Positions 20,213 through 46,608 of a stretch of 64,000 nucleotides of DNA are shown here, in pieces. Position 1 is the first letter of the stretch. Each line of letters opens with the position of its first letter. The DNA comes from Escherichia coli. GTDB lineage: Bacteria; Pseudomonadota; Gammaproteobacteria; Enterobacterales; Enterobacteriaceae. Below the pieces are notes generated by a model, which saw only the letters and a list, made by a program, of their open reading frames with translations, ran no database searches and was not told the DNA's origin. Both the position numbers and the translations under genes were made by a program. The stretch lies in the NCBI RefSeq assembly GCF_013315695.1, contig NZ_CP054353.1. One strand, 5' to 3'.

Positions 20213-21630
20213 TGGCGACATGGCAACTTGGCGGGCTGCCTAGCATGGCACCGCAAAATGATAATGCTCCTCGTTCTTCCGTTCCTCAGCCTGTGCAGTA
20301 TCAGCAGCAGCCAAACGTAGGTTTAATGGCGCTACAGGGGCTAAGAGGCGTTGCTGAGATTAATCAGCAGGCACGTCAACAACAGCGTAAAGCAGAGTTT
20401 CAGAAAGCATATGCCGGGGCTTTTGAGTCTGGAGACAGAAACAAAATGCGCAGTCTTATTTCTGAGTATCCAGAAGAATTTGAAAGCGTTCAGAAAGGGA
20501 TGGGCTTTATTGATGACGACCAGAGAAATTCTATTGGTCATCTTGCGACTAGTGCTCAAATCGCATCTTCGCTCGGAACTGGGGCATTTGGAAAATTCAT
20601 AGCAGATAACGAAGATGAAATGCGTCGTTTGGGAATTTCTCCTGAGTCTGTTGCCGAAATGCATGTTAATGATCCACAGGGATTCCAGCGGCTTGCTGGT
20701 AGTATGGCACTGTTTTCTCTCGGTCATGAGAAGTACTTCGATATCAAAGATCGAATGGAAGGTCGGGATATTGAGCGTGGCAAGTTGGCAGAGACGATCC
20801 GCAGCAATCAAGCCGGAGAAGCACTTCAGGCGAGAGGGCAGGATATTAGCCGAGCAAATGCGTTAACGTCAGCATATGCACCAACAGCCGCAATGCAGAA
20901 TTACAATCAATACGCGCAAATGTTAAAGGCGGATCCAGAGGGGGCTGCGGCATTTGCGGCAGCGGCTGGAATTAATACAAACGCCAAAAAATTAATGAGT
21001 GTTAGAGAAAACGATGATGGCACTGTCACAAAATACTACACAGACGGAAGTGAAGAGCAGGGAAAACTAAACCAGCCAATATCTGGAGATGGGTTTCGTC
21101 CAATAGCTTTGCCAACAGCCCAAAAGATCATGGAAAAGTCGCCAGAAGGGGCTAAAAAAGCTGCTGGATTTGCATACAGAGTTAGGGATGCTCTTGATTC
21201 AATAGATACACTGAAAGACCAGCTTAGCCCACAGCGAGTGGCGATCATTAATAATGCTTTGGGTAATGGGACGCTGGCTAACTTAACGCTCAGCCCAACA
21301 GAGCAGCAATACGTTGTTAATGCTAATGACGCAATAATGGCAATACTCCGTCAGGAAACAGGGGCATCTATCCTACCAGCTGAAATGTCCAAATATTATC
21401 AAATGTATTTCCCTCAGCCTGGTGATTCCACAAAAACCATTGATACCAAGCGTAGGAAGATGGAAAACCAGTTCAATTCGCTGAAAGCTGCTTCTGGTCG
21501 AGCTTATGATGCTTTGCGGGTTATTTCAGCAGTTGACAGAGGAACTTCTTCTTCGTCGCAGACATTGCCGCAATCTGAGCAGGTATCACAGCCAGCAGTA
21601 ATTTTTCTTCACTATGGGGTGATTAGGTAA
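20212..21630 (+). CDS. P22 gp20-like ejection protein; last codons replaced by IS1 sequence
   Basis: 472 aa (P22 gp20 is about 471 aa from memory). TAATG overlap with the gp7-like gene. IS1 starts at 21626. The reconstructed ancestral end is ...HYGVING-stop. Confidence 0.6.
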   Translation: MATWQLGGLPSMAPQNDNAPRSSVPQPVQYQQQPNVGLMALQGLRGVAEINQQARQQQRKAEFQKAYAGAFESGDRNKMRSLISEYPEEFESVQKGMGFIDDDQRNSIGHLATSAQIASSLGTGAFGKFIADNEDEMRRLGISPESVAEMHVNDPQGFQRLAGSMALFSLGHEKYFDIKDRMEGRDIERGKLAETIRSNQAGEALQARGQDISRANALTSAYAPTAAMQNYNQYAQMLKADPEGAAAFAAAAGINTNAKKLMSVRENDDGTVTKYYTDGSEEQGKLNQPISGDGFRPIALPTAQKIMEKSPEGAKKAAGFAYRVRDALDSIDTLKDQLSPQRVAIINNALGNGTLANLTLSPTEQQYVVNANDAIMAILRQETGASILPAEMSKYYQMYFPQPGDSTKTIDTKRRKMENQFNSLKAASGRAYDALRVISAVDRGTSSSSQTLPQSEQVSQPAVIFLHYGVIR

Positions 21631-21640
21631 TGACTCCAAC

Positions 21641-22144
21641 TTATTGATAGTGTTTTATGTTCAGATAATGCCCGATGACTTTGTCATGCAGCTCCACCGA
21701 TTTTGAGAACGACAGCGACTTCCGTCCCAGCCGTGCCAGGTGCTGCCTCAGATTCAGGTTATGCCGCTCAATTCGCTGCGTATATCGCTTGCTGATTACG
21801 TGCAGCTTTCCCTTCAGGCGGGATTCATACAGCGGCCAGCCATCCGTCATCCATATCACCACGTCAAAGGGTGACAGCAGGCTCATAAGACGCCCCAGCG
21901 TCGCCATAGTGCGTTCACCGAATACGTGCGCAACAACCGTCTTCCGGAGCCTGTCATACGCGTAAAACAGCCAGCGCTGGCGCGATTTAGCCCCGACATA
22001 GCCCCACTGTTCGTCCATTTCCGCGCAGACGATGACGTCACTGCCCGGCTGTATGCGCGAGGTTACCGACTGCGGCCTGAGTTTTTTAAGTGACGTAAAA
22101 TCGTGTTGAGGCCAACGCCCATAATGCGGGCTGTTGCCCGGCAT
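21641..22144 (-). CDS. insB: IS1 InsB' frame (made as an InsAB' fusion by -1 frameshift)
   Basis: 167-aa ORF identical in all complete IS1 copies in the window. Confidence 0.9.
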
Positions 22145-22338
22145 CCAACGCCATTCATGGCCATATCAATGATTTTCTGGTGCGTACCGGGTTGAGAAGC
22201 GGTGTAAGTGAACTGCAGTTGCCATGTTTTACGGCAGTGAGAGCAGAGATAGCGCTGATGTCCGGCGGTGCTTTTGCCGTTACGCACCACCCCGTCAGTA
22301 GCTGAACAGGAGGGACAGCTGATAGAAACAGAAGCCAC
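22063..22338 (-). CDS. insA: IS1 InsA
   Basis: 91 aa starting [30 protein letters not shown]. Confidence 0.92.
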
Positions 22339-22611
22339 TGGAGCACCTCAAAAACACCATCATACACTAAATCAGTAAGTTGGCAGCATCACCGAATAAA
22401 CGTATCCTCACGATTGCGCCATTCTTCTTACCGATATTCTGACACACATCATTAACTTTCTATTTTACTCTTTTCTCCACCATAAAATCAATAAAAGCAC
22501 TAACAGTAATTATAAATAAAAACAAAGCCAAAAATCTTGGTTCCAAAACTGGTAACAACTAACCAGTTTAAATATACGCATCAAAATCAGATAAACATTT
22601 GAGGTATTGTC

Positions 22612-22854
22612 ATGACAAAAAAACACCTATCACTGTTTTCTCCTTTTATGCTGACAGAAAAAATAAAGCCATGTAATCGTATCGTTATGGCTCCTATGAC
22701 GACCTGGTCAGCTAATCCTGATGGAACCATCTCTGAGCAAAAACTCGAATATTATAAATGTCGCTCACAAAATATTGGTTTAGTAATTACAGGATATACC
22801 TATGTCACGCCAAGGAAATTCAGGCATCGAAAGGAACTGGCTGGTTTCCGTTAA
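22612..22854 (+). pseudogene. N-terminal fragment of an Old Yellow Enzyme-type NADH:flavin oxidoreductase
   Basis: 80-aa ORF, ...LFSPFMLTEKIKPCNRIVMAPMTTWSANPDGTISEQKLEYY..., which is an OYE N-terminal pattern. The frame then collapses and no continuation was found. Confidence 0.5.
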
Positions 22855-23322
22855 TAGATTAAATATCTATTACTCTCCCGAGAGTAAAACTATCAAATCA
22901 ATGAGTAACCGATACAGCCTCACAAATTCTTTCAGATAATTAACCCGTCACTGCGGCACGTTCTCTCGTAAGGCGTGCCTGCAGTGTAATCCAGTATGTG
23001 TCCGGCATAGTTGACGGTTTAATAGAACTCAATTCCTCTCCCAGGTCACCAACAACGATATCTTGTATAACACCCCAGGAGATACAACATTATGATGAGA
23101 TGCGATATGCTCCTCAGCGCCAATCAATGCCAGGGCTGGGCCAGTCTTGAGATCAGACTCATTCCCGAAACTGACTTCAGGCGACATATATCAATGACGT
23201 TGGTGCAATAAAAGATAGCCGATGTAATACATCTATTCAAATTTGTGATACATGTCAAAAAATTGGTTGACCAAACTCGTTATTTATATAAGTGCACTCT
23301 TTTTTAAAGCGAGGAAGTACCA

Positions 23323-23424
23323 ATGAAAGAGAATAAAGTACAGCAAATCAGTCATAAACTGATTAATATCGTTGTTTTTGTCGCAATTGTAGAATACGCC
23401 TATTTATTTCTCCATTTCTATTAA
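23323..23424 (+). CDS. ykgR: Small membrane protein YkgR
   Basis: 33 codons, MKENKVQQISHKLINIVVFVAIVEYAYLFLHFY, with SD gaggaag. Recalled as ykgR, just upstream of ykgM. Confidence 0.6.
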   Translation: MKENKVQQISHKLINIVVFVAIVEYAYLFLHFY

Positions 23425-23759
23425 TAACGGCAATAAACTGTTCACTTCAGTGATATTTAAAATATGCATCCTCTCCCTTTTTTGTAAGTAATTATTATAT
23501 CCGTGGGAGAGGAATATACGCTGTCAGGTAATCAATCAAACTGCGATAAATCATCGGCCAGTAAAGTGGAGATAGCCTCCATTCTCGAAAAATCCATACT
23601 CTCAGCGAAACCATCATCAATCACTCATCCAGGCGTTTATGGGAGCGTAGCCAATGGCTGCTAACAATGCCAGACTTCCCCGTTGCGGAAATTCCACATC
23701 CCACAAATAGTCACAGGGATTGGGTGTTGAAATGATCCGGATGAGCATGTATCTTTATG

Positions 23760-23777
23760 GTTATGTTATAACATAAC
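23760..23777. promoter_or_regulatory. Zur box (perfect 18-bp palindrome GTTATGTTATAACATAAC)
   Basis: It lies 11 bp upstream of the ykgM start. ykgM-ykgO is a known Zur-repressed operon. Confidence 0.65.
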
Positions 23778-23788
23778 AGGTAAAAATG

Positions 23789-24052
23789 ATGAAGCCCAAT
23801 ATCCATCCTGAGTATCGTACTGTGGTGTTCCACGACACCAGTGTTGATGAGTACTTTAAAATCGGCTCGACTATCAAAACAGACCGTGAGATTGAGCTGG
23901 ATGGCGTAACGTATCCGTACGTAACAATTGATGTCTCTTCAAAATCGCACCCGTTCTATACAGGGAAGCTGAGAACAGTGGCATCAGAAGGAAATGTTGC
24001 ACGATTCACCCAACGTTTTGGTCGTTTTGTTAGCACGAAAAAGGGGGCATGA
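23789..24052 (+). CDS. ykgM: Zinc-independent ribosomal protein L31 paralog
   Basis: [32 protein letters not shown]... It lacks the Cys zinc motif. The ORF track starts one Met earlier, at 23786. Confidence 0.93.
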
Positions 24053-24192
24053 TGAAAGTCCTTAACTCTCTGCGTACCGCAAAAGAACGCCATCCAGACT
24101 GTCAGATTGTGAAGCGAAAAGGACGGCTGTATGTGATTTGTAAATCTAATCCACGTTTTAAGGTCGTTCAGGGTCGTAAGAAAAAACGTTGA
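24052..24192 (+). CDS. ykgO: Zinc-independent ribosomal protein L36 paralog
   Basis: 46 codons, [46 protein letters not shown]. The ATG overlaps the ykgM stop. It is too short for the ORF track. Confidence 0.9.
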
Positions 24193-24242
24193 TTTAAAAT
24201 TCGACGAATTAACGATATTTGTCTGATTAATAATCAGACCTG

Positions 24243-24281
24243 ATTAATGTTGGTGTATTTATTACACCAGCATTAATTTTC
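24243..24281 (+). terminator. Terminator after ykgMO
   Basis: attaatgttggtgta pairs with tacaccagcattaat (one G-U pair) and is followed by tttt. A second palindrome, gtctgattaataatcagac, lies at 24221..24239. Confidence 0.5.
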
Positions 24282-25143
24282 CTGGGGATGTATCTTCCTG
24301 TTCATTTAAGGTCAACTGCCTGACGTTTCTCTCCGAATATTCCATTATATTAATGTTGACTTGTTGACCAGCTTCGCCCTGTATGCTGGCATCAACTCTA
24401 TTTTAGACTGAACACGTCACTCAGTTTCCTCCCTTTGCGACGCAGCCTGCATTTACACTCAAACTATTAAGATGATAAATGTGGTAAATCTGTTGGTACT
24501 GGCATAAAAACGTTTACGCCACAGGAACGGCCTGATCCATCGGTAACCCCATCGCCGACGTTCGAGTGCCAGTTAGAGTAACGCGCACAGATGACTGAAT
24601 GCAGTGCCCTGGCAAAGAGGCCATCGTTCCTGTGACAACTGGCAGTCTTCGTTTAACTTCACTTAATTTGGCTCTTAGGGGGCTTACCGGACATGATGAC
24701 GTACTTACACCTGTTTAATTTTTCATCACTTATTGGAGTGAACACCCATAACCATTTTGTGCGGCATGTTAACCCATTAAAACACCTTACTGATTGGCAA
24801 ATCATCTTTAATTATGACTCATGATAGTTTTATATTCTATTTCTTATCATTTAAACTTGTTTTTTTACTAGTCCATTACACAACACATTAAGACTATTCC
24901 TAACACCTCAGGGCAAAGTTCCTGGCTAATATAAAATGCAAGTAAGAATTGAACGTTATATTGCCAATAACCTTATGAAACTGAATGTCTTTTTCTTCTT
25001 ATCAAAAAAGCAATATTTTCATTTTTTGTAAATATTGACTTAACCATGGAATTCATTTTCTGTTCACATATTGACACTCATCAGGAAAAAAACATAAATT
25101 TAAACCTAATCGAAATAATTAAAACTTAGGTAATGACTCCAAC

Positions 25144-25647
25144 TTATTGATAGTGTTTTATGTTCAGATAATGCCCGATGACTTTGTCATGCAGCTCCAC
25201 CGATTTTGAGAACGACAGCGACTTCCGTCCCAGCCGTGCCAGGTGCTGCCTCAGATTCAGGTTATGCCGCTCAATTCGCTGCGTATATCGCTTGCTGATT
25301 ACGTGCAGCTTTCCCTTCAGGCGGGATTCATACAGCGGCCAGCCATCCGTCATCCATATCACCACGTCAAAGGGTGACAGCAGGCTCATAAGACGCCCCA
25401 GCGTCGCCATAGTGCGTTCACCGAATACGTGCGCAACAACCGTCTTCCGGAGCCTGTCATACGCGTAAAACAGCCAGCGCTGGCGCGATTTAGCCCCGAC
25501 ATAGCCCCACTGTTCGTCCATTTCCGCGCAGACGATGACGTCACTGCCCGGCTGTATGCGCGAGGTTACCGACTGCGGCCTGAGTTTTTTAAGTGACGTA
25601 AAATCGTGTTGAGGCCAACGCCCATAATGCGGGCTGTTGCCCGGCAT
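25144..25647 (-). CDS. insB: IS1 InsB' frame
   Basis: Identical 167-aa ORF. Confidence 0.9.
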
Positions 25648-25841
25648 CCAACGCCATTCATGGCCATATCAATGATTTTCTGGTGCGTACCGGGTTGAGA
25701 AGCGGTGTAAGTGAACTGCAGTTGCCATGTTTTACGGCAGTGAGAGCAGAGATAGCGCTGATGTCCGGCGGTGCTTTTGCCGTTACGCACCACCCCGTCA
25801 GTAGCTGAACAGGAGGGACAGCTGATAGAAACAGAAGCCAC
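25566..25841 (-). CDS. insA: IS1 InsA
   Basis: Identical 91-aa ORF. Confidence 0.92.
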
Positions 25842-25896
25842 TGGAGCACCTCAAAAACACCATCATACACTAAATCAGTAAGTTGGCAGCATCACC

Positions 25897-28180
25897 GGAT
25901 GATGGACAGCTACGCATCCGGAAAATACAGCTGGAAGAGAGTGAAGATAACGCCAGTGTCAGCGAACAAACTCGACAGCAACTGATGACTCTGGCCAACG
26001 CCCCGTTCAATGAGGCCCTTACCATCCCCCTGACTGACAACGCGCAGCTGGATCTCAGCTTGCGCCAACTGCTGCTGCAGCTGGTGGTCAAGCGCGAAGC
26101 GCTGGGCACCGTACTACGCTCACGTAGCGAAGACATCGGGCAGTCCAGTGTTAACACCCTCAGCAGTAATCTGAGCTATAACTTCGGCGTCTATAACAAC
26201 CAGTTGCGTAACGGCGGGAGCAACACATCCAGCTATCTGTCGCTGAATAACGTTACTGCACTGCGCGAACATCATGTGGTGCTCGACGGCTCGCTGTACG
26301 GGATCGGTAGCGGTCAACAGGACAGTGAATTATATAAAGCGATGTATGAACGCGATTTTGCCGGTCACCGATTTGCCGGTGGAATGCTCGACACCTGGAA
26401 CTTGCAGTCCTTAGGGCCGATGACCGCCATTTCAGCAGGGAAGATTTACGGCCTTTCCTGGGGAAACCAGGCCAGCTCCACCATCTTCGACAGCAGCCAG
26501 TCAGCCACGCCAGTGATCGCCTTTTTACCGGCGGCGGGCGAAGTACATCTCACCCGTGATGGGCGGTTACTAAGCGTTCAGAACTTCACCATGGGCAATC
26601 ATGAAGTGGATACCCGGGGTCTACCGTACGGTATTTACGATGTGGAAGTTGAGGTCATCGTTAACGGTCGCGTGATTAGCAAACGCACTCAACGGGTCAA
26701 TAAGCTGTTTAGCCGGGGGCGCGGCGTCGGTGCACCACTGGCGTGGCAGATATGGGGCGGTAGCTTTCATATGGATCGCTGGTCGGAAAACGGGAAAAAG
26801 ACGCGACCAGCTAAAGATAGTTGGCTGGCAGGTGCCTCGACCTCCGGCTCACTGAGTACGCTTAGCTGGGCGGCAACGGGATATGGATACGATAATCAGG
26901 CGGTGGGTGAAACCCGTCTGACGCTGCCGCTTGGGGGAGCGATCAACGTTAACCTGCAAAATATGCTGGCCAGTGACAGCTCATGGAGCAACATCGCCAG
27001 CATCAGCGCCACTCTACCGGGAGGCTTTAGTTCGCTGTGGGTTAACCAGGAAAAAACCCGCATTGGCAATCAATTGCGACGTAGCGATGCCGACAACCGT
27101 GCAATCGGCGGCACACTCAACCTGAACTCACTGTGGTCGAAGCTGGGCACATTCAGCATCAGCTACAATGATGACCGCCGTTACAACAGCCATTATTACA
27201 CGGCAGATTACTATCAAAGTGTCTACAGCGGTACCTTTGGTACGCTTGGCCTGCGGGCCGGTATTCAGCGCTATAACAACGGCGACAGCAGCGCCAATAC
27301 AGGAAAATATATCGCTCTCGATCTCTCGCTACCACTGGGCAACTGGTTTAGCGCAGGGATGACCCATCAAAACGGCTACACCATGGCAAACCTGTCAGCA
27401 CGCAAACAGTTTGATGAAGGGACCATTCGCACTGTTGGTGCCAATCTGTCACGAGCCATCTCCGGCGATACCGGTGATGACAAAACTCTCAGTGGTGGGG
27501 CGTATGCACAGTTCGACGCTCGTTACGCCAGCGGAACGCTGAACGTCAATAGCGCGGCGGACGGCTACATCAATACTAATTTGACCGCCAACGGCAGCGT
27601 CGGCTGGCAGGGTAAAAACATCGCTGCCAGCGGGCGGACCGATGGCAACGCTGGGGTGATATTCGACACTGGCCTGGAGAACGATGGTCAGATCAGCGCC
27701 AAAATCAACGGGCGGATTTTCCCGCTTAACGGCAAGCGTAACTATCTCCCGCTCTCTCCCTATGGAAGATATGAGGTGGAGTTACAGAACAGCAAAAACT
27801 CACTCGACAGTTACGATATCGTCAGCGGTCGCAAAAGTCATCTGACTCTCTATCCAGGCAATGTCGCTGTCATTGAGCCAGAGGTGAAGCAGATGGTTAC
27901 CGTCTCCGGTCGTATCCGTGCGGAAGACGGCACACTGCTGGCTAACGCACGGATTAACAACCATATCGGCCGAACCCGAACCGATGAAAACGGCGAGTTT
28001 GTCATGGACGTGGATAAGAAATACCCCACTATCGATTTTCGCTACAGTGGCAATAAAACCTGCGAAGTGGCACTGGAACTCAACCAGGCGCGCGGTGCCG
28101 TCTGGGTCGGTGATGTGGTCTGCAGCGGCCTCTCATCGTGGGCGGCGGTGACGCAGACAGGAGAAGAGAATGAGAGTTAA
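25897..28180 (+). pseudogene. ecpC: E. coli common pilus usher EcpC, 5'-truncated by IS1
   Basis: The first codons of ORF 25883..28180 are IS1 sequence. The remainder (...[20 protein letters not shown]... to the C-terminus) is followed by ecpD and ecpE. No ecpR, ecpA or ecpB is present. Confidence 0.85.
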
Positions 28181-31134: not shown

Positions 31135-31155
31135 ATATGCAATAATTAATTGCAC

Positions 31156-31369: not shown

Positions 31370-31382
31370 ATCATTCAATGCA

Positions 31383-34824: not shown

Positions 34825-34846
34825 AATAATAATTTTCCTTGTAATG

Positions 34847-35799: not shown

Positions 35800-35890
35800 T
35801 AGACTGGCCCCCTGAATCTCCAGACAACCAGTATCACTTATTTAAGTGATAGTCTTAATACTAGTTTTTAGACTAGTCATTGGAGAGCAG

Positions 35891-38398: not shown

Positions 38399-38414
38399 AA
38401 GGGAAGGGATATAG

Positions 38415-38580
38415 GTATTTAGATGTATTTATAGCTATTTATGGCTATTTATTTTTTATTTGCCTTTATTTAAAAATAACCTTATAAATCAATAAGATAC
38501 ACAACTATCTGTTTATATTTTAATCAATTAAATCAAGTTTAATACCCTTAAATCACCTGAAAATACCCTTAAATACCCCA
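38415..38580 (+). repeat. AT-rich tract with tatttat/gctatttat units and aatacccttaaat x2
   Basis: gtatttatagctatttatggctatttatttttt lies at 38425..38457. aatacccttaaat occurs at 38541..38553 and 38562..38574. The layout resembles a DNA-unwinding element next to iterons. Confidence 0.45.
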
Positions 38581-38742
38581 ATAATTAATTTTAAGGTTTT
38601 CCGTGTTCTCTTCTGCATTATGAAAATGCAAAATAAGGCACAAAACAAGCGCACAGACGCATTAAACACACATCACCTATACATCCCTATACCAAGCAAT
38701 GAAAATAGCGTTAGAATGCGTCCTGTTGCGTTCTGGAGATTT

Positions 38743-38901
38743 TCAGAAATCCTCTCTAAGCCATTTCAACTCATTAAGGAGTTTTCTTTCTTCGTTCTCT
38801 CTCTGTTTACGCTCTAGCCAGGCTTTTCCTTCTGGCGTAGACAGGAACTTACGAGCGTGAATCTTGCGGTTATTACGTTTGATAGCTGCAATGTTTTTCA
38901 T
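38743..38901 (-). CDS. Possible small basic protein (52 aa)
   Basis: MKNIAAIKRNNRKIHARKFLSTPEGKAWLERKQRENEERKLLNELKWLREDF. It is below the ORF-track cut-off and no homology was recognised. Confidence 0.25.
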   Translation of the reverse strand: MKNIAAIKRNNRKIHARKFLSTPEGKAWLERKQRENEERKLLNELKWLREDF

Positions 38902-39505
38902 CGTGTGCCTCTGTATTCATATGAAAATTAACAAGTTACATACTACACAGGGAGACTACGCATAAAACACAATACAAGTAAAGATACATTTTCAAGACAA
39001 TAGGAGCCATAAAGCGCCTTTGATGGGCTACCCCAAAAAATAAGCGCCGTAGGCGTATCCACTAAAAGGGCTTTTTCACAAAAGCTATGAAGTCTTAGCA
39101 GTTCTTCTCTTATCAGGCACCCGTTGTACTCCGGTGGACGAAACCGTGCTAGAGCTTGATTCTTTCCCGATCAAGTTAGGTTTTGAAGAGGTGGGCTTTG
39201 ATCCACTATTGCACTTAAAACTCTTCCCATCATTTAGCCTGTTTATCCTCTGCAACGTCTCACGACGTGTAGCATCATTGGACACCGCGCCAGGTGTGGA
39301 ACATCTTGCTAAGAGTTTTGGTAGAAGGTTTAGAGACGGTGGCACGTCTTCCAGCTTCAAAGGAACTTGTTACGAGGTTGAGCCTGGGAACTACTCGCCC
39401 ATACGTGTTACACTACCAAAGCCCATAACAACGTATAGGCGTTTGTAAGTGATAACAGAAGATACAATTTCTTAGAGAAGTTAAGCTAAGTTATTGATTT
39501 TCTTG

Positions 39506-39523
39506 ATTGTGCGATAATAGGAA
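39506..39523 (-). other. Degenerate thrW 3'-end repeat (att copy between E1 and E2)
   Basis: ttgtgcgataataggaac compared with tggtgccgataataggagt, the reverse complement of the thrW end. The 11-nt core cgataatagga matches exactly. An arm-type repeat lies 60 nt away. Confidence 0.5.
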
Positions 39524-39582
39524 CAATACACATAGGCGATAAGCTTTGTTTTTGTTGCCTTTTTTATTGTTCATTTTTTATA

Positions 39583-39604
39583 GATACCCCCAAAAGTACC
39601 CCCA
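39583..39604 (-). repeat. Putative integrase arm-type site, second copy
   Basis: atacccccaaaagtacccccat is the reverse complement of atgggggtacttttgggggtat. It matches 8972..8993 at 21 of 22 positions. Confidence 0.55.
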
Positions 39605-39723
39605 TATCTTTTTCCGCCCCTGAAATTTGGTTGTTATTCATACAGCATATCAGGCGGTAACGCTCTCCCTTTAACCCACTTATTGTATGATAGTGCTATC
39701 CCACAATAAGGAATCAGCCAGCC

Positions 39724-40083
39724 ATGAGAATGACCAGCCGCAAAAAAGAGATACTTAGCTACTTTGAACCGGATAACCTCGAATGGGTGACTGGTGAGAT
39801 TGGTGCGCCGCCGTTCGATGTGTCGGGTGTGGCCTACCTGCTTCATGGCATGGTGTCGTTCGATAAGCGTCACCAGCTCGAATCAACCCGGCGCACACTG
39901 GAAAGCATGGTTGCTGGTGGACTGCTTGAGCGGGTGACAGTGTATGAATCGCGCCAGATACGGCGCGGCGGTGATACTAACGCAACGGTCGTGCGCTACG
40001 GTTTACCCGGTCAGTGCGCTGTTATGCGCGATACTGGCGGCGCTGACAACGCAATATCAGGTGAATACATGCGGGTCAGTTAA
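39724..40083 (+). CDS. Hypothetical protein (119 aa)
   Basis: This ORF converges on the PRiA4_ORF3-like gene and overlaps it by 8 nt. No family recognised. Confidence 0.45.
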   Translation: MRMTSRKKEILSYFEPDNLEWVTGEIGAPPFDVSGVAYLLHGMVSFDKRHQLESTRRTLESMVAGGLLERVTVYESRQIRRGGDTNATVVRYGLPGQCAVMRDTGGADNAISGEYMRVS

Positions 40084-40618
40084 TAGCCTGCAATCTGTCG
40101 TTGATGCGGCTCAGGTCGTAAACCCGGCGTTCAATATCCAGCATCAGGAAATTGTGGATCTCGGCCTGCTCAGGATTATCAGACTCTCTGGCCTGTAATA
40201 GCAATTCATTGTAACCATGCAAGCCGCCTGAGTTTTCCGCCGGGGTGGTGCCTTTCCCACGCAGGCAGCTAATGGGCTGATTACTCGTATCGTGTGTTTG
40301 CTTCTCCAGCACAATGACGCAATCCCACCAGTCGCCAAAGTCATACGTGTAAACCAGCTTGTCACCCTCATTCTGGAGCGCCGCCCATAGTGGCGTGATT
40401 GCCGCGTTACCCATGCTTTCATCCTCACCCCATACGCGATACTCGCTACCTGGATCACCTTTACGCCCTTTCTCGAACATATACAGGTGTTCGTCATTCC
40501 AGCCAAAAGCTAACTGGATCACGGCATGAAGTTTACTAAAGGGGATTTGCTCTGGAACCAGCACACGCCGCCATATAGGTGGTTTGCTGTCTCGGATGGT
40601 TATCTTTAGCTGGTACAT
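40076..40618 (-). CDS. PRiA4b ORF-3-like (MM3350-like) domain protein
   Basis: 180 aa. YQLKITIRDSKPPIWRRVLVPEQIPFSKLHAVIQLAFGWNDEHLYMF...YTYDFGDWWDCVIVLEK...GGLHGYNELL is the family signature as I recall it. Confidence 0.75.
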   Translation of the reverse strand: MYQLKITIRDSKPPIWRRVLVPEQIPFSKLHAVIQLAFGWNDEHLYMFEKGRKGDPGSEYRVWGEDESMGNAAITPLWAALQNEGDKLVYTYDFGDWWDCVIVLEKQTHDTSNQPISCLRGKGTTPAENSGGLHGYNELLLQARESDNPEQAEIHNFLMLDIERRVYDLSRINDRLQAIN

Positions 40619-40738
40619 GCAAATCCTGAATAAATGCGAATCGGAAGGATAACGATACTGACGTACTCACAATTCTGTAAAGGTGAATAAAGGAAATTTG
40701 CTTAATACGCATAAGTTACATGTGGAATAATCCCATAT

Positions 40739-40924
40739 CTACCTGCGCGGCGCTGGCTTCTTCCACTGATAGGCAGGTGCTCGCATCATTTCGCGGAACC
40801 TGTCGCGCCGGGCTATATCGGCATTAACTGATCGTTCTATCTCCCGTTGATCTGCCTGTGTAAGCTGGTGGCCTCCGTGCTCAAGTTTGGCGATGGTCAA
40901 TAAGGCTATTTCGCGTGGTGTCAT
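40739..40924 (-). CDS. Hypothetical small protein (61 aa)
   Basis: ORF only. No family recognised. Confidence 0.35.
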   Translation of the reverse strand: MTPREIALLTIAKLEHGGHQLTQADQREIERSVNADIARRDRFREMMRAPAYQWKKPAPRR

Positions 40925-41150
40925 ACGTCATACCCTCTGGAAGAATGAAACACGCCCGGATTAAATTTCATTTTTCGCGGGTATAAAAAAACGATGGGGC
41001 GGGCAGTCCCGGATAGTCAGGGCTGTAGAGATTTGACTACCCCCTCCCCACTGGATTCAGGTTACTGCTATTCCGTTAAGCGCTGCTTACGGGGATAGCT
41101 GCGTTGTGATTTTGACCATTCAGGTCGCCGCTATTTCCTCACCGATTGGG

Positions 41151-41185
41151 TGCTACGCGCGCGCGTACTTGTCCCGAAATACCAG
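41151..41185 (+). repeat. (CG)n-palindrome repeat, copy A (tgctacgcgcgcgcgtacttgtcccgaaataccag)
   Basis: It contains the 14-bp palindrome tacgcgcgcgcgta. It is closely similar to 42561..42593. Confidence 0.7.
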
Positions 41186-41221
41186 AAACCGCCAGCCAGA
41201 GGATGATTTCCCTCTGGTGGT

Positions 41222-41503
41222 CTACCTTTGCCTCTTGCCGCCATTTAACCGGAAGGCGTTACCGTTCGGTTGCGCTATCCCCATGCGGTGTTGCGTTTCG
41301 GTAACAGCTTTATGCAGGTCGCCAAATTCCTCAACCTTCACGGGCGGGCGCTTCACGTTCTCCAGACACGTTTCACGGCGGCGCTTTATCCATTCCCGAT
41401 CATCGTCCTCGGTGCATAACAGCATGACTTCCATCCATCGTGCGGCAGCTCTCCGGTATAGCCCTTTTGACTCCAGCTCTTCAGCTTTCCTGTCCCTTAT
41501 CAT
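41222..41503 (-). CDS. PerC-family transcriptional activator
   Basis: 93 aa. MIRDRKAEELESKGLYRRAAARWMEVMLL matches the PerC/Pch N-terminal signature. Confidence 0.75.
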   Translation of the reverse strand: MIRDRKAEELESKGLYRRAAARWMEVMLLCTEDDDREWIKRRRETCLENVKRPPVKVEEFGDLHKAVTETQHRMGIAQPNGNAFRLNGGKRQR

Positions 41504-41537
41504 TTCTGCCTCTCAGATTATATAGATAAGCAAAAAG

Positions 41538-41682
41538 GTGTTGGTTCAGTTGGTTCAGTTGGTTCAGTTGGTTCAGTTGGTTCAATTTGTAAAGATTGTT
41601 GTTTTTATTGTGTTTTTTCTGAAATATTGAACCAACATCAACTCATTTTGAACCAACACAGCCCAGCTCTGAACCAACAACA
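41538..41682 (+). repeat. Iteron origin-like structure B
   Basis: Five tandem gttggttca units (41540..41584), then atttgtaaaga and an AT-rich spacer, then three inverted tgaaccaaca units. This is the same architecture as 18349..18455. Confidence 0.6.
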
Positions 41683-41780
41683 CAGCGATAGATTTGTGAT
41701 TGGTCCGTTATTTTCTGGCTGATATTTGAGCGTATAACAGTGTTATACAGTGGTATACTGTATGGATATTACTCACTGAT

Positions 41781-42236
41781 ATGGTCTTTGCAATGAGCAA
41801 ATCTAATCTGGTCGCGTTCCGCATCCCATCTGAATTGCAGGATGAGTTTAATCGGTCTGTTCTCGCTTCTGGAGGAGATAAAACCTCCTGGCTTGTTGAT
41901 GCGATTCGCATGAAGCTGGGGCAGCCGGAAAAGTCTATTGATTCACGAATGCTTGGGCTGGTGGAGCGCATGGAAAAAGCCGCTGCGTCGCTTATTGCCG
42001 GAAAGCCGAACATCCCACCAAAACCATATAACGAAACGGCAGTTATAAAGATCATTGCCGATACCATCCAACAGGGATTTGATAATGGGCGTGTGATAGC
42101 TGAACGGATCAATGAAGCAGGCTATCAAACAAAAGCTGGTAAAGCGTGGGATAAAGATATTTACAGCGCGTGGAAGCGTCAGGGAAGCAATGCTGAAAAG
42201 CTAAAAGCAGTGATTGATTGTAAGGTCAGCGTATAA
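41781..42236 (+). CDS. Putative DNA-binding protein (N-terminal ribbon-helix-helix, C-terminal HTH-like)
   Basis: 151 aa. SNLVAFRIPSELQDEFNRSVLASGGDKTSWLVDAIRMKL is CopG/Arc-like. An inverted repeat, atacagt-ggtat-actgtat, lies just upstream (about 41738..41756). Confidence 0.5.
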   Translation: MVFAMSKSNLVAFRIPSELQDEFNRSVLASGGDKTSWLVDAIRMKLGQPEKSIDSRMLGLVERMEKAAASLIAGKPNIPPKPYNETAVIKIIADTIQQGFDNGRVIAERINEAGYQTKAGKAWDKDIYSAWKRQGSNAEKLKAVIDCKVSV

Positions 42237-42315
42237 ACATGAGTGCCCATTGGAAAGTTGCTTGGGCCAATACCTTTATACACCAGCAGGTAGTGACGAT
42301 AGGTGAGGATCAGAT

Positions 42316-42537
42316 ATGAAAGGCAGAACGCCACACATTGAACATCAAGCCAACCACTTCCCTGATGTTCGCAATGAGATGATTGCCATTCGCGGTGATA
42401 TGCACGGATTGGAGCGTCGAATTATTGATAAGATTGATGAAAATAGAGATAAGGCCAGTGAAAATCAAAAGTGGATCATCGGCCTGTTGATTTTATCAAT
42501 TCTTATCCCGCTACTTATCGCATTGGTCACAAAATGA
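42316..42537 (+). CDS. XhlA-like small membrane protein
   Basis: 73 aa. It has a coiled-coil N-terminus and a single C-terminal TM helix (WIIGLLILSILIPLLIALV), as in the XhlA family. Confidence 0.5.
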   Translation: MKGRTPHIEHQANHFPDVRNEMIAIRGDMHGLERRIIDKIDENRDKASENQKWIIGLLILSILIPLLIALVTK

Positions 42538-42560
42538 ATATCCAATGTGTATGCTGTCGA

Positions 42561-42593
42561 TGCTACGCGCGCGTACTTGTCGCAAAATATCAG
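42561..42593 (+). repeat. (CG)n-palindrome repeat, copy B (tgctacgcgcgcgtacttgtcgcaaaatatcag)
   Basis: It contains the 12-bp palindrome tacgcgcgcgta, 24 nt after the XhlA-like stop. Confidence 0.7.
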
Positions 42594-42800
42594 GCAAAGG
42601 CCAGATTCAGAAAGTCGTGATAACCACCAGCACAACATGAGAGGTCATGTAACGCGATTTATCACACCAGATACATGTGATTGGTGTACCCGCATAAAAC
42701 ATCGTCATAGCGCGTCCTGTGCGCATATACGCCGATAATCAACACATCACCACCACTCTGTCTCATGTAGAGAACAGTTTTATGGTATCCCCCGCCATCG

Positions 42801-42948
42801 TGTGCGTACTGGTCGGACGCAGTTGCAAAAAATTTTGCAACTGATACCCCTCGCGCGCGTACTGGTCACGAAATTGGTGTTTTGCTGTGGCAGTGATATC
42901 AGAAAAATCTTCCTGTTTCACATAAAGCGGATATGCGCGTACTGTAAC
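42801..42948 (+). repeat. Three further GYGCGTACTKGT copies plus a 10-bp inverted repeat
   Basis: The copies are gtgcgtactggtc (42802), gcgcgtactggtc (42854) and gcgcgtactgtaa (42935). The inverted repeat agttgcaaaa-aa-ttttgcaact lies at 42821..42842. Confidence 0.6.
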
Positions 42949-43058
42949 GGCCCCATCAACTGGGAGCGGACTTGAAATCCCGACCCAAGCTATGTACCAA
43001 ATGCCATGTCTTGGATATATGATGATTGCCATTCTAAACAACGCTAAAGGGGGTTGGT

Positions 43059-43673
43059 GTGAGCAGAAAAGATACTAAAGAATTGCTAACTATCTGCATG
43101 GTGTACTTTTCAATTTATTTTTGTGCATACATGATAGTCCCAGATGAGTTTGAACATGGCAGTATTATTTATTCCATAACATTCTATTTTTTAGAGCTAA
43201 CACCAATTTTGGCTATCCTTTTGGGAATACATATTTATTTTTCCTTAAAAAAAGAATCGACTAATTGGGAGAAGGTATGGAGAGACAGAGGATTTCTAAC
43301 ATCACCTAAAGATGATGCATATGAGAGTGATTTTTCTGACTTTATAACAAACTACTACTCCAGCGAACAATTCAAAAATAGACTGTCTGATGTTTGGGAA
43401 ACAGCAATGTATTCCATAGGGATTATATTATTGATACTTACTGGTATTGCTCAATATGTTTTTAACATTGACTTATCATTAAATCCTGAAAATTTAATAT
43501 CGCCATTGATTTTTGGTGAGATATTGATCTTCTCATTCGGAATTTTCTTGAGTGTTGTTCTCTGCTCATTATGCAAGCTACTGACTAACAGGTATCCGGG
43601 TGAAGCAAGGAGAGCAAGAAAGGCAAATCCATATTATCTTTTATTTCCTAATGGAGACAGCAGAGATATCTAA
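43059..43673 (+). CDS. Four-TM membrane protein, moron-like (sits where P22 carries sieA)
   Basis: 204 aa with a GTG start after a strong SD (aaaggggg). It has four hydrophobic segments and is visibly AT-rich. It is divergent from the gp16-like gene in the ancestral orientation. Confidence 0.6.
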   Translation: MSRKDTKELLTICMVYFSIYFCAYMIVPDEFEHGSIIYSITFYFLELTPILAILLGIHIYFSLKKESTNWEKVWRDRGFLTSPKDDAYESDFSDFITNYYSSEQFKNRLSDVWETAMYSIGIILLILTGIAQYVFNIDLSLNPENLISPLIFGEILIFSFGIFLSVVLCSLCKLLTNRYPGEARRARKANPYYLLFPNGDSRDI

Positions 43674-43692
43674 GCCATCCATGGCTAACCAG

Positions 43693-45798
43693 TTATTGAG
43701 CTTCTTTTTGTGATGCCTGTGCGACTCTGGTGAGCGATTGTGTGACCGTACTGATCGCTCTGTCATATGCTGTGCTACCTTTTGGCGTATTTGCCAGACG
43801 TAACAAGGCATTTCGTATAACAGGGCTTTCGTATGCCTTCGCTGCTCCGCCTACGGCACCAGCAGCAGGAACAACAAACGCAGCCGTTTTTAGCATCCCC
43901 GCTAATACTGCTGCGTTTATGATGCCACCACCAACTAACAATCCATAAAGCTGCTGACCATTTAAGTTTTGAACGTTCGCTTTTGCCGCGTGTCTTGTAT
44001 CGTTGAGGTATTTAATAACGCCGTCCAGTTCCTTTCCATGTACGCCTTTAAAGAAAGTTGCTGATTGCTTCCTGTTCCGGTGTAACGCATTAATAAACTT
44101 CTCAACACTGATATTTCCAGACGGATCAGTCGCCTTATCTACAGCATTCTGAACTATGGCTGCTCGTGCGTTTTGCCTACCATTGTCATCCAGAAGCCTG
44201 TAAAGCTGAGAACGTTCTGATGGGCTTTGGCTAAAAACGAGTTTTGTTACATCCTCAGGCGTGGCCTTACCGCTGGCTATTGCCTTTTGAACGCGCGTTC
44301 TTCCCATCATGTCATTGAATTTAGACCATGACCGATCAACCCTTGCCATATTAATGGCTTCGTCTGCTCCAAGATTTTTGGCTACGGCTTTTTTCATATC
44401 CGCCGTATATGCCTTGTAGATAATATCGCTGGCTTTCTGGAGCGTATCTTTATCAACAGTGTCAGATGACGCCATAAATCGCTTTCGAAGATCGGTTCTG
44501 TTTTCCCTCGCCAGACGCAGGTCATTTGGTCCGCTGGTGATATCGTCTTTAAATTGCTGCAAGACTTTTACCGCGGCTCTATCCTGAGATTTGCCCGGGC
44601 GGCTTAACACGGCAATCTGATTGTCGATAGCTTTTACCGTGTTTGAGAGATCGACAGGGGTATCCCCCATAGCGTCAATTATGCGGTTATATCGCTTTCC
44701 TGCTGCCTCAATGAATTTTTGTTGCCCTTTAGTCGCAGATTCATAAAGCTGTTTATCAGAAATGCCACCCAGACCATCGCTAAATGTTCTGACTAAATTT
44801 TCTCGTGCTTGTTGTTGATTCAGCCGATTCTTACCGGTTCCAAAAAAAGGAACTCTTTCGCCTAATGTCTGAGCCTGACTCTGCATAAAGGTTTTATCTT
44901 TCAGCATGTCACTGGTCATTAACGGCAGATTTCTTTCCGATGCAAAGTTGACAGCAGCCTTTGCTTCAGGCGACATATCACCACGAACAGCCCTCGAAAC
45001 CGCACTCGCTGTATTTTCCAGCCCCTTACCAATACCACCAATGCCAGCAGAAATTACCGTTTGTAACGGATCAATATCTTCTCCACCAGCAAGGCTGGTG
45101 GCTCCCTGTAGTGCTAAATCTGTAGCTGCTGATTTTCCTATGGCACCAAGCACCGTTCCAGCCCTGCCCGCTGGTGTAAACGCCAGCGCATTAGCCAGAA
45201 ACGATGCCACGTCTTGCGGCGATAAACCCGGCTTGTTCAGAGCATAATCACCGGATGGCAGGGAAACGATAGTGTTACCCTTCTCATCCTGCCTTAATTT
45301 CGCTCCCATGCTCTGAAGAATCTTTTCCTGAGATGCGTCAGAGCCGAAAAGTTGAGACCATCGAGCTTTTAGAGCACCCATGCTGAGTGAGGTTAACTCT
45401 GGGGCAAGGTCGACATTTTGCAGTCTCTCCATCTCTGGAGTCATTCGGCTTTCGCCTGTTATAGCATCGCGCATCGCAGCCCCAAGACTGGCTCCCTGTT
45501 CTGCTGAACGCTCAAGCCCCTCTCTTTGCTGAGTAGCTAACTTTGCATACCCTGACGCAAGAGAATTATCAGATGATGTATGTTGAATATTTTGAGTTGC
45601 TGATTGGGATCGGTCTATTTCATTCGTTGATGGTAGTGGATAGGCAGCATAAAAAGCCTGCTTAGCCTGCGCTACACTTTCTCCGGCTTGCGGGGCCACG
45701 ACTTCATTGAAGTATTGCTCCTGAGCCTGCGCTTTTTGTTCTGGTGCTAACGCCTGATACTGTGGAGAGGCGATAACATCTTTCCATGCTTTAGCCAT
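43693..45798 (-). CDS. P22 gp16-like ejection protein
   Basis: 701 aa starting MAKAWKDVIASPQYQALAPEQKAQAQEQYFNEVV. It is Ala/Gln/Gly-rich. In the reconstructed ancestral sequence its ATG overlaps the gp20-like stop (ATGGCTAA). Confidence 0.55.
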   Translation of the reverse strand: MAKAWKDVIASPQYQALAPEQKAQAQEQYFNEVVAPQAGESVAQAKQAFYAAYPLPSTNEIDRSQSATQNIQHTSSDNSLASGYAKLATQQREGLERSAEQGASLGAAMRDAITGESRMTPEMERLQNVDLAPELTSLSMGALKARWSQLFGSDASQEKILQSMGAKLRQDEKGNTIVSLPSGDYALNKPGLSPQDVASFLANALAFTPAGRAGTVLGAIGKSAATDLALQGATSLAGGEDIDPLQTVISAGIGGIGKGLENTASAVSRAVRGDMSPEAKAAVNFASERNLPLMTSDMLKDKTFMQSQAQTLGERVPFFGTGKNRLNQQQARENLVRTFSDGLGGISDKQLYESATKGQQKFIEAAGKRYNRIIDAMGDTPVDLSNTVKAIDNQIAVLSRPGKSQDRAAVKVLQQFKDDITSGPNDLRLARENRTDLRKRFMASSDTVDKDTLQKASDIIYKAYTADMKKAVAKNLGADEAINMARVDRSWSKFNDMMGRTRVQKAIASGKATPEDVTKLVFSQSPSERSQLYRLLDDNGRQNARAAIVQNAVDKATDPSGNISVEKFINALHRNRKQSATFFKGVHGKELDGVIKYLNDTRHAAKANVQNLNGQQLYGLLVGGGIINAAVLAGMLKTAAFVVPAAGAVGGAAKAYESPVIRNALLRLANTPKGSTAYDRAISTVTQSLTRVAQASQKEAQ

Positions 45799-45862
45799 TA
45801 ATCACCCGGTGATGCTGCCAACTTACTGATTTAGTGTATGATGGTGTTTTTGAGGTGCTCCA

Positions 45863-46138
45863 GTGGCTTCTGTTTCTATCAGCTGTCCCTCCTGTTCAGC
45901 TACTGACGGGGTGGTGCGTAACGGCAAAAGCACCGCCGGACATCAGCGCTATCTCTGCTCTCACTGCCGTAAAACATGGCAACTGCAGTTCACTTACACC
46001 GCTTCTCAACCCGGTACGCACCAGAAAATCATTGATATGGCCATGAATGGCGTTGGATGCCGGGCAACAGCCCGCATTATGGGCGTTGGCCTCAACACGA
46101 TTTTACGTCACTTAAAAAACTCAGGCCGCAGTCGGTAA
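45863..46138 (+). CDS. insA: IS1 InsA
   Basis: Identical 91-aa ORF. Confidence 0.92.
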
Positions 46139-46560
46139 CCTCGCGCATACAGCCGGGCAGTGACGTCATCGTCTGCGCGGAAATGGACGAACAGTGGGGC
46201 TATGTCGGGGCTAAATCGCGCCAGCGCTGGCTGTTTTACGCGTATGACAGGCTCCGGAAGACGGTTGTTGCGCACGTATTCGGTGAACGCACTATGGCGA
46301 CGCTGGGGCGTCTTATGAGCCTGCTGTCACCCTTTGACGTGGTGATATGGATGACGGATGGCTGGCCGCTGTATGAATCCCGCCTGAAGGGAAAGCTGCA
46401 CGTAATCAGCAAGCGATATACGCAGCGAATTGAGCGGCATAACCTGAATCTGAGGCAGCACCTGGCACGGCTGGGACGGAAGTCGCTGTCGTTCTCAAAA
46501 TCGGTGGAGCTGCATGACAAAGTCATCGGGCATTATCTGAATATAAAACACTATCAATAA
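46057..46560 (+). CDS. insB: IS1 InsB' frame
   Basis: Identical 167-aa ORF. The frameshift A-run ttaaaaaac lies within the insA/insB overlap. Confidence 0.9.
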
Positions 46561-46608
46561 GTTGGAGTCATTACCCGTTTATTCATAATAAATCTCCTGA
46601 AAGTTTAG

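What the first reader, a model, noticed from the sequence alone, without database searches (positions are those of the whole stretch)
21617..46584. Swapped 9-bp target duplications prove an IS1 x IS1 inversion of about 23.4 kb
IS1 copy 1 (21626..22393, minus) has the flanks gggtgatta (21617..21625) and gaataaacg (22394..22402). IS1 copy 3 (45808..46575, plus) has the flanks taatcaccc (45799..45807) and cgtttattc (46576..46584). Each flank of copy 1 is the exact reverse complement of the same-side flank of copy 3.

This is the signature of two ordinary IS1 insertions, each with a 9-bp duplication, followed by homologous recombination between the inverted copies. Re-inverting 22394..45807 has two effects. 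It restores the K-12-like backbone order yagU, ykgJ, ecpEDC, ykgO, ykgM, ykgR. It also joins the gp20-like stop to the gp16-like start as gtgattaATGGCTAAagc, a typical coupled overlap.

The inversion mixes island DNA with backbone DNA and changes the strand of about 20 genes relative to replication direction.
Basis: seen in the sequence. Interest (0 to 1): 0.6.

Follow-up and report, generated by a model that had tools for sequence, protein, structure and literature searches.

The report
IS1-bounded 23.4-kb chromosomal inversion
Two oppositely oriented copies of the insertion sequence IS1 have flipped a 23.4-kb stretch of this E. coli chromosome; the flip is real and relatives confirm it, but it is an ordinary, well-known kind of bacterial genome rearrangement.

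Summary
IS1 copy 1 (21626-22393, minus) is flanked by GGGTGATTA and GAATAAACG. IS1 copy 3 (45808-46575, plus) is flanked by their exact reverse complements.

Genomes without these insertions carry each 9-mer once at the matching empty site, so both are true 9-bp IS1 target duplications whose halves have been exchanged.

IS-free relatives (AF14, PRO_A-1534) show the order thrW-island(int..gp20-gp16..PerC)-yagU-ykgJ-ecpEDCBAR-ykgO-ykgM-ykgR-LysR-fdeC. That is exactly what re-inverting 22394-45807 restores.

A near-identical genome, AF3, has IS1 at the same gp16 and LysR junctions with the segment uninverted. MSB1_4I shares the window's inverted state. GC skew changes sign inside the segment.

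The inversion is therefore real. The exchanged duplications do not by themselves prove homologous recombination, because one-step intramolecular replicative IS1 transposition gives the identical pattern. The two histories need equal numbers of events. I favour two insertions followed by recombination (about 0.65) over the one-step route (about 0.25). Either way, one IS1 x IS1 recombinational flip is needed to connect the window and AF3.

This is a known phenomenon of low interest. The lineage also carries several deletions next to IS1 and IS2 copies.

The parts
8784..8859 (+). tRNA-Thr (thrW, anticodon CGT). The left boundary of the integrated island whose right half now lies inside the inverted segment.
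   Evidence: ARAGORN. Annotated next to the island integrase in AF3 and AF14.
20212..21630 (+). P22 gp20-like ejection protein gene. Its last two codons and stop (AAT GGC TAA) are replaced by AGG TAA, read from the IS1 end.
   Evidence: ORF list; Pfam PF16928 at E=3e-58; comparison with the intact junction in ECONIH1.
21617..21625 (+). GGGTGATTA: one half of the 9-bp target duplication of insertion site A (the gp20/gp16 junction).
   Evidence: Present once in the empty site.
21626..22393 (-). IS1 copy 1, 768 bp. The IRR end faces gp20. This is the left boundary of the inversion.
   Evidence: RefSeq annotates an IS1A-family transposase with programmed frameshift.
22394..22402 (+). GAATAAACG: one half of the 9-bp duplication of insertion site B (the LysR / oxidoreductase-pseudogene intergenic region), now beside copy 1.
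   Evidence: Present once in AF14.
22403..45798 (.). The inverted segment. It holds backbone DNA (oxidoreductase pseudogene, ykgR, ykgM, ykgO, IS1 copy 2, truncated ecpC, ecpD, ecpE, ykgJ, yagU) and island DNA (integrase remnant, second integrase, baseplate gene, IS2, PerC-family gene and others, gp16-like gene). MSB1_4I annotates 26 features here, 19 of them intact CDS.
   Evidence: Annotation of MSB1_4I. Opposite orientation relative to the flanks in AF3, AF14 and PRO_A-1534. GC skew is -0.023 inside against +0.050 and +0.065 in the flanks.
25129..25896 (-). IS1 copy 2, inside the segment. Its flanks are TAAAACTTA and GGATGATGG, so it has no target duplication. It marks a 2,346-bp deletion of ecpR, ecpA, ecpB and the 5' end of ecpC.
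   Evidence: The flanks map to AF14 locus L003 at 6793 and 9140. Also present in AF3.
43693..45798 (-). P22 gp16-like ejection protein gene (701 aa). Its ATG lies directly next to the site-A 9-mer.
   Evidence: ORF list. RefSeq names the matching CDS (WP_001570980.1) in AF3 'P22-gp16 family phage DNA ejection protein'. No Pfam match.
45799..45807 (+). TAATCACCC: the other half of the site-A duplication, in reverse complement.
45808..46575 (+). IS1 copy 3, 768 bp. The IRL end faces gp16 and the IRR end faces LysR. This is the right boundary of the inversion.
   Evidence: InsA and InsB Pfam domains.
46576..46584 (+). CGTTTATTC: the other half of the site-B duplication.
46715..47608 (+). LysR-family regulator gene. 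Its upstream intergenic region is insertion site B. The inversion separates it from its former divergent neighbour.
   Evidence: Annotation of MSB1_4I, locus L001 37116-38009 plus an offset of 9599.

Best explanation
The window carries a genuine 23.4-kb chromosomal inversion bounded by two inverted IS1 copies.

The most likely history has three steps.
1. One IS1 inserted at the overlap between the gp20-like and gp16-like ejection-protein genes of an island integrated at thrW, duplicating GGGTGATTA.
2. Another IS1 inserted, in the opposite orientation, in the intergenic region upstream of a LysR-family regulator about 23 kb away, duplicating CGTTTATTC.
3. Host homologous recombination between the two 768-bp inverted copies then flipped everything between them. 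Each IS1 kept its outer flank and swapped its inner flank.

What is shown: the exchanged 9-mers, the single-copy empty sites, the uninverted order in IS-free relatives, and a sister genome with both IS1 copies in the uninverted orientation. What is inferred: that the second copy arrived by simple insertion, and that the flip was RecA-type recombination on the window's branch.

The consequences are modest. The island is split, gp20-gp16 translational coupling is broken, about 19 intact genes change strand relative to replication, and the local GC skew is reversed.
For: - The flanks are exact reverse complements at independently defined IS1 ends.
- Each 9-mer is present once at the empty sites in ECONIH1 and AF14. 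The reconstructed 2-kb junctions are matched over at least 80% of their length in 301 and 90 complete genomes.
- AF14 and PRO_A-1534 lack these IS1 copies and show the re-inverted order at the same thrW-fdeC locus.
- AF3 is 99.76-99.97% identical to the window across the aligned blocks. It has the identical gp16|IRL and IRR|LysR junctions, but the segment lies in the opposite orientation relative to the flanks.
- MSB1_4I is a distinct assembly that differs from the window by real substitutions, and it shares the inverted state.
- GC skew is +0.050 / -0.023 / +0.065 for left flank / interior / right flank.
- For the mechanism: in an IS1 evolution experiment, simple insertions outnumbered recA-independent inversions by about 9 to 1 (106 against 12 in recA- lines), and inversions were about three times more frequent per line with recA (PMC12065110).
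- In the uninverted frame, copies 2, 3 and 4 are direct repeats. Intramolecular replicative events cannot produce direct copies, so this 42-kb region has evidently accepted several independent IS1 insertions (inference).
Against: - The exchanged-duplication pattern is also exactly what one-step intramolecular replicative transposition in trans produces (PMC4471558).
- Counting events on the three-genome tree gives five for either history.
- AF3 has lost precisely the two junctions that would have shown direct duplications. It lacks 10,683 bp next to the IRR of the phage-side IS1 and 31 bp next to the IRL of the LysR-side IS1. No genome therefore shows an intact uninverted intermediate.
- No genome with only one of the two IS1 copies was found among 5,426 complete genomes.
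- SNPs give a star tree with no rooting power.
- SNPs inside the IS1 copies do not map a crossover.
Confidence: 0.65

Rival explanations
1. One-step duplicative inversion. A single resident IS1, at site B or site A, carried out intramolecular replicative transposition in trans into the other site. In one event this created the second, inverted copy, the 9-bp duplication of the new target and the inversion. AF3 would then be a later reversal by IS1 x IS1 homologous recombination plus two deletions.
For: - It predicts exactly the observed flank pattern. [quoted passage not shown]
- IS1-associated inversions still occur in recA- lines (12 events), and most new IS1 insertion sites (536 of 902) were 'complex' (PMC12065110).
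- Four IS1 copies lie within 42 kb. Copies 2 and 4 have no target duplication, so transposase-driven local rearrangement is active in this lineage.
- It needs the same number of events as the favoured history.
Against: - It requires the uninverted AF3 state to be a secondary reversal, whereas AF3 has the same orientation as every IS-free relative.
- RecA-independent inversions were about nine times rarer than simple insertions in the IS1 experiment.
- The direct-repeat copies in the same region show that independent local insertions are common here.
Confidence: 0.25
2. The orientation is not fixed. Either it is an assembly artefact, or the culture holds both orientations. All four IS1-flank junction sequences are the same in both orientations, so only reads that span a whole 768-bp IS1 can decide.
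For: - The four junction sequences are by construction the same in the inverted and uninverted states (inference).
- Two sister genomes show opposite orientations, so flipping does occur in this lineage.
Against: - The window and MSB1_4I differ by true substitutions (ten SNPs in 31 kb of shared non-IS sequence between the two). They are therefore separate genomes or assemblies, yet both have the inverted state.
- They also share a 6,413-bp deletion next to IS2 that AF3 lacks, which fits a fixed sub-lineage.
- The GC skew agrees only with inversion relative to the ancestral orientation. It says nothing about recency.
Confidence: 0.05
3. The match between the flanks is coincidental, and the present order is ancestral.
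For: None found.
Against: - The chance probability is about 1.5e-11.
- Each empty site holds a single 9-mer.
- IS-free relatives all show the other order.
Confidence: 0

Closest known systems
IS-bounded chromosomal inversions by homologous recombination between inverted IS copies in E. coli (IS1 evolution experiment, PMC12065110; the long-term evolution experiment figures as quoted in that paper's Table 1)
   Same: Two identical IS copies in inverted orientation lie at the breakpoints. The target-duplication halves are exchanged. The size, 23 kb, falls within the reported range of 2.2 kb to 1.7 Mb. The inversion lies within one replichore.
   Different: Nothing essential differs. This is a natural clinical-lineage instance, and one breakpoint lies inside an integrated island, so island and backbone DNA are interleaved.
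Intramolecular replicative transposition in trans ('duplicative inversion'), as described for IS26 and Tn4401 (PMC4471558)
   Same: Inverted IS copies bracket an inverted segment, with matched flank sequences in inverted configuration.
   Different: Here a sister genome carries both copies with the segment uninverted, which the one-step route does not produce directly. In my understanding, IS1 transposes mainly by simple insertion. In the engineered, transposase-overexpressing IS1 experiment, 366 of 902 new insertion sites were simple.
IS1-adjacent deletions (classical IS1 behaviour; own knowledge, consistent with PMC4471558 and PMC12065110)
   Same: Copies 2 and 4 in the window and both AF3 copies have one or two flanks without a target duplication and abut missing DNA.
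   Different: These events accompany the inversion in the same lineage. They are not the inversion itself.

Membership tests
IS1 family insertion sequence (IS1A type) | A 768-bp element with imperfect terminal inverted repeats of about 23 bp | tested here: met
   Copies 1, 2 and 3 are each 768 bp. The ends read GGTGATGCTGCCAACTTACTGAT and the complement of GGTAATGACTCCAACTTATTGAT.
IS1 family insertion sequence (IS1A type) | InsA (zinc ribbon plus HTH) and InsB (DDE) reading frames joined by a programmed frameshift | tested here: met
   Pfam PF03811 and PF12759 on 45863-46138, and PF03400 on 46057-46560. RefSeq annotates an 'IS1-like element IS1A family transposase, programmed frameshift' on MSB1_4I's IS1 copies at the same positions. 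The A6C motif TTAAAAAACTC is visible.
IS1 family insertion sequence (IS1A type) | 9-bp target-site duplication on insertion | tested here: met
   Each 9-mer is single at the empty sites and present twice in the window, once beside each of the two IS1 copies.
Inversion by homologous recombination between inverted IS copies | Two homologous copies in inverted orientation exactly at the breakpoints, with exchanged duplication halves | tested here: met
Inversion by homologous recombination between inverted IS copies | Relatives without the IS copies have the opposite orientation of the segment | tested here: met
   AF14 and PRO_A-1534.
Inversion by homologous recombination between inverted IS copies | A precursor state exists with both IS copies in place, each with a direct duplication, and the segment uninverted | tested here: inconclusive
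   AF3 has both copies at the same gp16 and LysR junctions with the segment uninverted. Its other two junctions were removed by deletions of 10,683 bp and 31 bp.
Inversion by homologous recombination between inverted IS copies | Dependence on RecA or host recombination | not testable with these tools
   This needs flip-frequency measurements in recA+ and recA- derivatives.
One-step intramolecular replicative transposition (trans) inversion | The immediate ancestor has only one IS copy and an empty target site | tested here: inconclusive
   Junction searches found these insertions only in MSB1_4I and AF3 among 5,426 complete genomes. No single-copy relative was found.
P22-type ejection protein gene cluster (gp7-gp20-gp16) | Adjacent genes matching the gp7, gp20 and gp16 families, with gp20 and gp16 overlapping | tested here: met
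   PF25688 (gp7) and PF16928 (gp20). RefSeq's 'P22-gp16 family' name for the matching CDS, WP_001570980.1. The genes are contiguous in ECONIH1 and PRO_A-1534.

The most novel reading that the evidence does not exclude
The 23.4-kb segment may be a recurrently flipping, IS1-bounded invertible region. It is seen in both orientations in sister genomes. Its orientation could change expression of the genes at its edges (the LysR regulator, ykgR, ykgM and ykgO, gp16). Alternatively it could behave as a 25-kb IS1 composite transposon able to move ecp, ykgMO and island DNA.
Probability: 0.07. Interest if true: 0.35.

Novelty: already known. Interest (0 to 1): 0.13.

Why it matters
Its main use is for annotation and bookkeeping. 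It explains why an island integrated at thrW appears split and interleaved with core genes, why gp20 is called a pseudogene, and why local synteny and GC skew break in this strain.

It also gives a tidy natural example of IS1 reshaping one 55-kb neighbourhood. That neighbourhood holds one inversion and at least five IS-adjacent deletions across three sister genomes. One of those deletions inactivated the E. coli common pilus operon. No new biology is implied.

Tried and rejected
- **Extended repeat arms.** The repeat finder extended arms I1 and I3 by 15-16 nt beyond the IS1 ends. This hinted that copy 2 shares a flank with copy 3, and copy 1 with copy 4. Reading the bases showed only 11/16 and about 8/15 matches, which is loose extension and not shared flanks.
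- **Mapping the crossover with SNPs inside IS1.** Position 735 is T only in copy 3 of the window and MSB1_4I. Position 262 differs between the window and MSB1_4I in copies 1, 2 and 4 together. AF3 has A262 and C735 in both copies. The pattern looks like gene conversion or polishing noise and places no crossover.
- **Deciding which genomes are sisters from SNPs.** All 12 substitutions in 31,278 shared non-IS positions are private to one genome. All are derived wherever an outgroup base is available, giving a star tree. Only structural characters group the window with MSB1_4I: the inversion and the 6.4-kb deletion next to IS2.
- **Searching for single-IS1 intermediates and for intact uninverted two-copy genomes.** Four 80-nt junction probes found none. 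Hit H124 (strain Esc4) is an unrelated IS1 in a different gene context.
- **Public short-read or metagenome contigs.** I did not search these, because all four junctions are the same in both orientations and contigs break at IS1.
- **Technical note.** Locus L002 was not exported to the scripting machine, so I fetched the AF3 region again as L007.
Full report
**Observation**

The window holds four IS1 copies: c1 at 21626-22393 (minus), c2 at 25129-25896 (minus), c3 at 45808-46575 (plus), and c4 from 63495, cut by the window end (plus).
- c1 is flanked by GGGTGATTA and GAATAAACG.
- c3 is flanked by TAATCACCC and CGTTTATTC, the exact reverse complements of the same-side flanks of c1.
- The IS ends are fixed by the point where the four copies stop being alike, and by the empty sites described below.
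- Two exact 9-mer matches at fixed positions have a chance probability of about 1.5e-11.
- c1 and c3 differ at one base, IS1 position 735.
- The elements are bona fide IS1. Each is 768 bp, with InsA and InsB Pfam domains. RefSeq calls the transposase on MSB1_4I's IS1 copies at the same positions IS1A-family with a programmed frameshift.

**Empty sites**

I rebuilt the two hypothetical pre-insertion sites from the window.

- Site A joins the gp20 side to the reverse complement of the gp16 side. It is matched over at least 80% of the 2-kb query in 301 complete E. coli genomes.
- In ECONIH1 the junction reads CACTATGGGGTGATTAATGGCTAAAGC, with a single GGGTGATTA.
- Site B joins the reverse complement of the ykgR side to the LysR side. 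It is matched over at least 80% in 90 genomes.
- AF14 contains the exact 49-mer with a single GAATAAACG.

Both 9-mers are therefore true IS1 target duplications whose halves now lie beside different IS1 copies.

**Comparative gene order**

| Genome | These two IS1 copies | Orientation of the segment |
|---|---|---|
| AF14 (NZ_OZ546925.1) | absent | uninverted |
| PRO_A-1534-6M-A_ESBL (NZ_CM136150.1) | absent | uninverted |
| AF3 (NZ_OZ547117.1) | both present | uninverted |
| MSB1_4I (NZ_LR898874.1) | both present | inverted |
| Window | both present | inverted |

- The two IS-free genomes both read proA-thrW-int-...-primase-...-gp7-gp20-gp16-...-PerC-...-integrase remnant-yagU-ykgJ-ecpE-D-C-B-A-R-ykgO-ykgM-ykgR-...-LysR-aldo/keto reductases-fdeC.
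- PRO_A-1534 even carries the same nested second element (integrase, baseplate, capsid) as the window.
- The window reads thrW-int...gp20 | IS1 | ykgR ykgM ykgO ... ecpC' D E ykgJ yagU ... gp16 | IS1 | LysR ... fdeC.
- Re-inverting 22394-45807 restores the ancestral order on both sides.
- GC skew agrees: +0.050 on the left, -0.023 in the interior and +0.065 on the right.

**Sister genomes**

- Only MSB1_4I is collinear with the whole 25 kb. It is not the window's source. The two differ by 14 mismatches and 3 indels over 49 kb, and most of these are clean substitutions.
- AF3 is 99.76-99.97% identical to the window across the aligned blocks. It has IS1 at exactly the same gp16|IRL and IRR|LysR junctions, but the interior segment aligns in the opposite orientation relative to the flanks. 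Both orientations therefore exist in this clone with both IS1 copies in place.
- AF3 lacks the other two junctions. Window bases 10943-21625 (10,683 bp, from inside the HTH regulator gene through gp20) are missing next to the IRR of its phage-side IS1. In addition, 31 bp, including the site-B 9-mer, are missing next to the IRL of its LysR-side IS1.
- The gp20|IRR and IRL|ykgR-side junctions occur only in MSB1_4I among 5,426 complete genomes.

**Mechanism**

The inversion itself is secure. How it arose is less so, because two histories give the same flank pattern.
- History 1 is two simple insertions followed by homologous recombination between the inverted copies.
- History 2 is one insertion followed by one intramolecular replicative transposition in trans, which creates the second copy and the inversion together. 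PMC4471558 uses the same pattern to argue for this route in IS26 and Tn4401.

*Event counts.*
- History 1 needs two insertions, one recombinational flip on the window/MSB1_4I branch and two deletions in AF3.
- History 2 needs one insertion, one duplicative inversion, one recombinational reversal in AF3 and two deletions.
- That is five events each. Either way, one IS1 x IS1 recombinational flip is required.

*What did not help.*
- SNPs do not root the tree. All 12 substitutions in 31 kb are private and derived.
- Structurally, the window and MSB1_4I share a derived 6,413-bp deletion next to IS2, so they are sisters relative to AF3.

*Why I favour history 1.*
- AF3 and every IS-free relative share the uninverted orientation.
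- In an IS1 evolution experiment, simple insertions outnumbered recA-independent inversions about 9 to 1, and inversions were about three times more frequent per line with recA (PMC12065110).
- In the uninverted frame, c2, c3 and c4 are direct repeats. Intramolecular replicative events cannot produce direct copies, so this region has demonstrably taken several independent insertions.

I put history 1 at about 0.65, history 2 at about 0.25, and an assembly or mixed-population artefact at about 0.05. The artefact is unlikely because two different assemblies agree and share another structural marker.

**Consequences**

The inversion splits the thrW island. It separates gp20 from gp16, and gp20 now ends ...GVIR* using an IS1 stop. 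It detaches the LysR gene from its divergent neighbour, which is already a pseudogene. It reverses 26 annotated features, 19 of them intact CDS. It lies within one replichore and does not include the origin or terminus.

**Comparison and novelty**

This is a textbook IS-mediated inversion. The same arrangement is already in a public RefSeq genome. Nothing departs from known IS1 behaviour, so interest is low.

Noticed in passing
window 25129-25896 and flanks: IS1 copy 2 has no target duplication (flanks TAAAACTTA and GGATGATGG). Compared with AF14, it replaces 2,346 bp holding ecpR, ecpA, ecpB and the first 243 bp of ecpC. The E. coli common pilus operon is therefore dead in the window, MSB1_4I and AF3.
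   Followed up: yes
window 63495-64000 (continues in MSB1_4I, locus L005 7586-8353): IS1 copy 4 sits between ykgG and a truncated lacA. Its flanks CCATTCCTG and GGTGTCCCG do not match. In K-12 (own knowledge), ykgH, the bet genes, the yah genes and the cyn genes lie between these two points, so this looks like a large IS1-associated deletion that brings lacYZI next to ykgEFG.
   Followed up: partly
window 35800-37131: IS2 interrupts an 1,836-bp island gene. AF3 keeps 6,413 bp beyond the IS2 end, including a major capsid protein and an HTH regulator. The window and MSB1_4I lack this stretch, which makes it an IS2-adjacent deletion shared by the two inverted genomes.
   Followed up: yes
AF3 (locus L002 9501/9502 and 40057/40058; equivalent to window 22394-22424 and 10943-21625): The uninverted sister genome has two IS1-adjacent deletions, of 31 bp and 10,683 bp. 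They removed exactly the two junctions that would have shown direct target duplications. AF3 also has a 1-bp frameshift in ecpE.
   Followed up: yes
window about 9000-21625 and 32200-45798: The thrW island carries an integrase, HTH, AntA/B and Ash-family genes, a TOPRIM/DUF927 primase, DUF2824, P22-type gp7-gp20-gp16 ejection proteins and a PerC-family regulator. It has no capsid or tail genes of its own, and so resembles a phage satellite. Its gp20/gp16 junction is matched in 301 complete genomes, and a full related island sits at another locus in ECONIH1 (yicC-dinD). A second element, with its own integrase plus baseplate and capsid genes, is nested at its far end.
   Followed up: partly
window 41540-41584: A perfect 9-bp tandem repeat, GTTGGTTCA, lies in the intergenic region beside the PerC-family gene. 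It has 5 copies in the window, 4 in MSB1_4I and 3 in AF3.
   Followed up: partly
IS1 positions 262 and 735 in all copies: Copy 3 alone has T at position 735, in both the window and MSB1_4I. In MSB1_4I, copies 1, 2 and 4 all have T at position 262, where every copy in the window and AF3 has A. A concerted change across copies suggests gene conversion between IS1 copies or repeat-polishing artefacts.
   Followed up: partly
window 21626-64000: Four IS1 copies lie within 42 kb. Junction-probe hits suggest the genome holds roughly 14-24 IS1 ends, so about 0.2 copies would be expected in a stretch this size. This thrW-lac neighbourhood is a local hotspot, or a tolerated zone, for IS1.
   Followed up: no
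window 22403-22848, compared with L008 7059-10449: In this lineage and in AF14, only a 237-bp remnant of the NADH:flavin oxidoreductase gene is left beside the LysR gene. PRO_A-1534 and Esc4 have a second LysR gene, an alpha/beta hydrolase and an intact oxidoreductase there. This is an older deletion unrelated to IS1.
   Followed up: no
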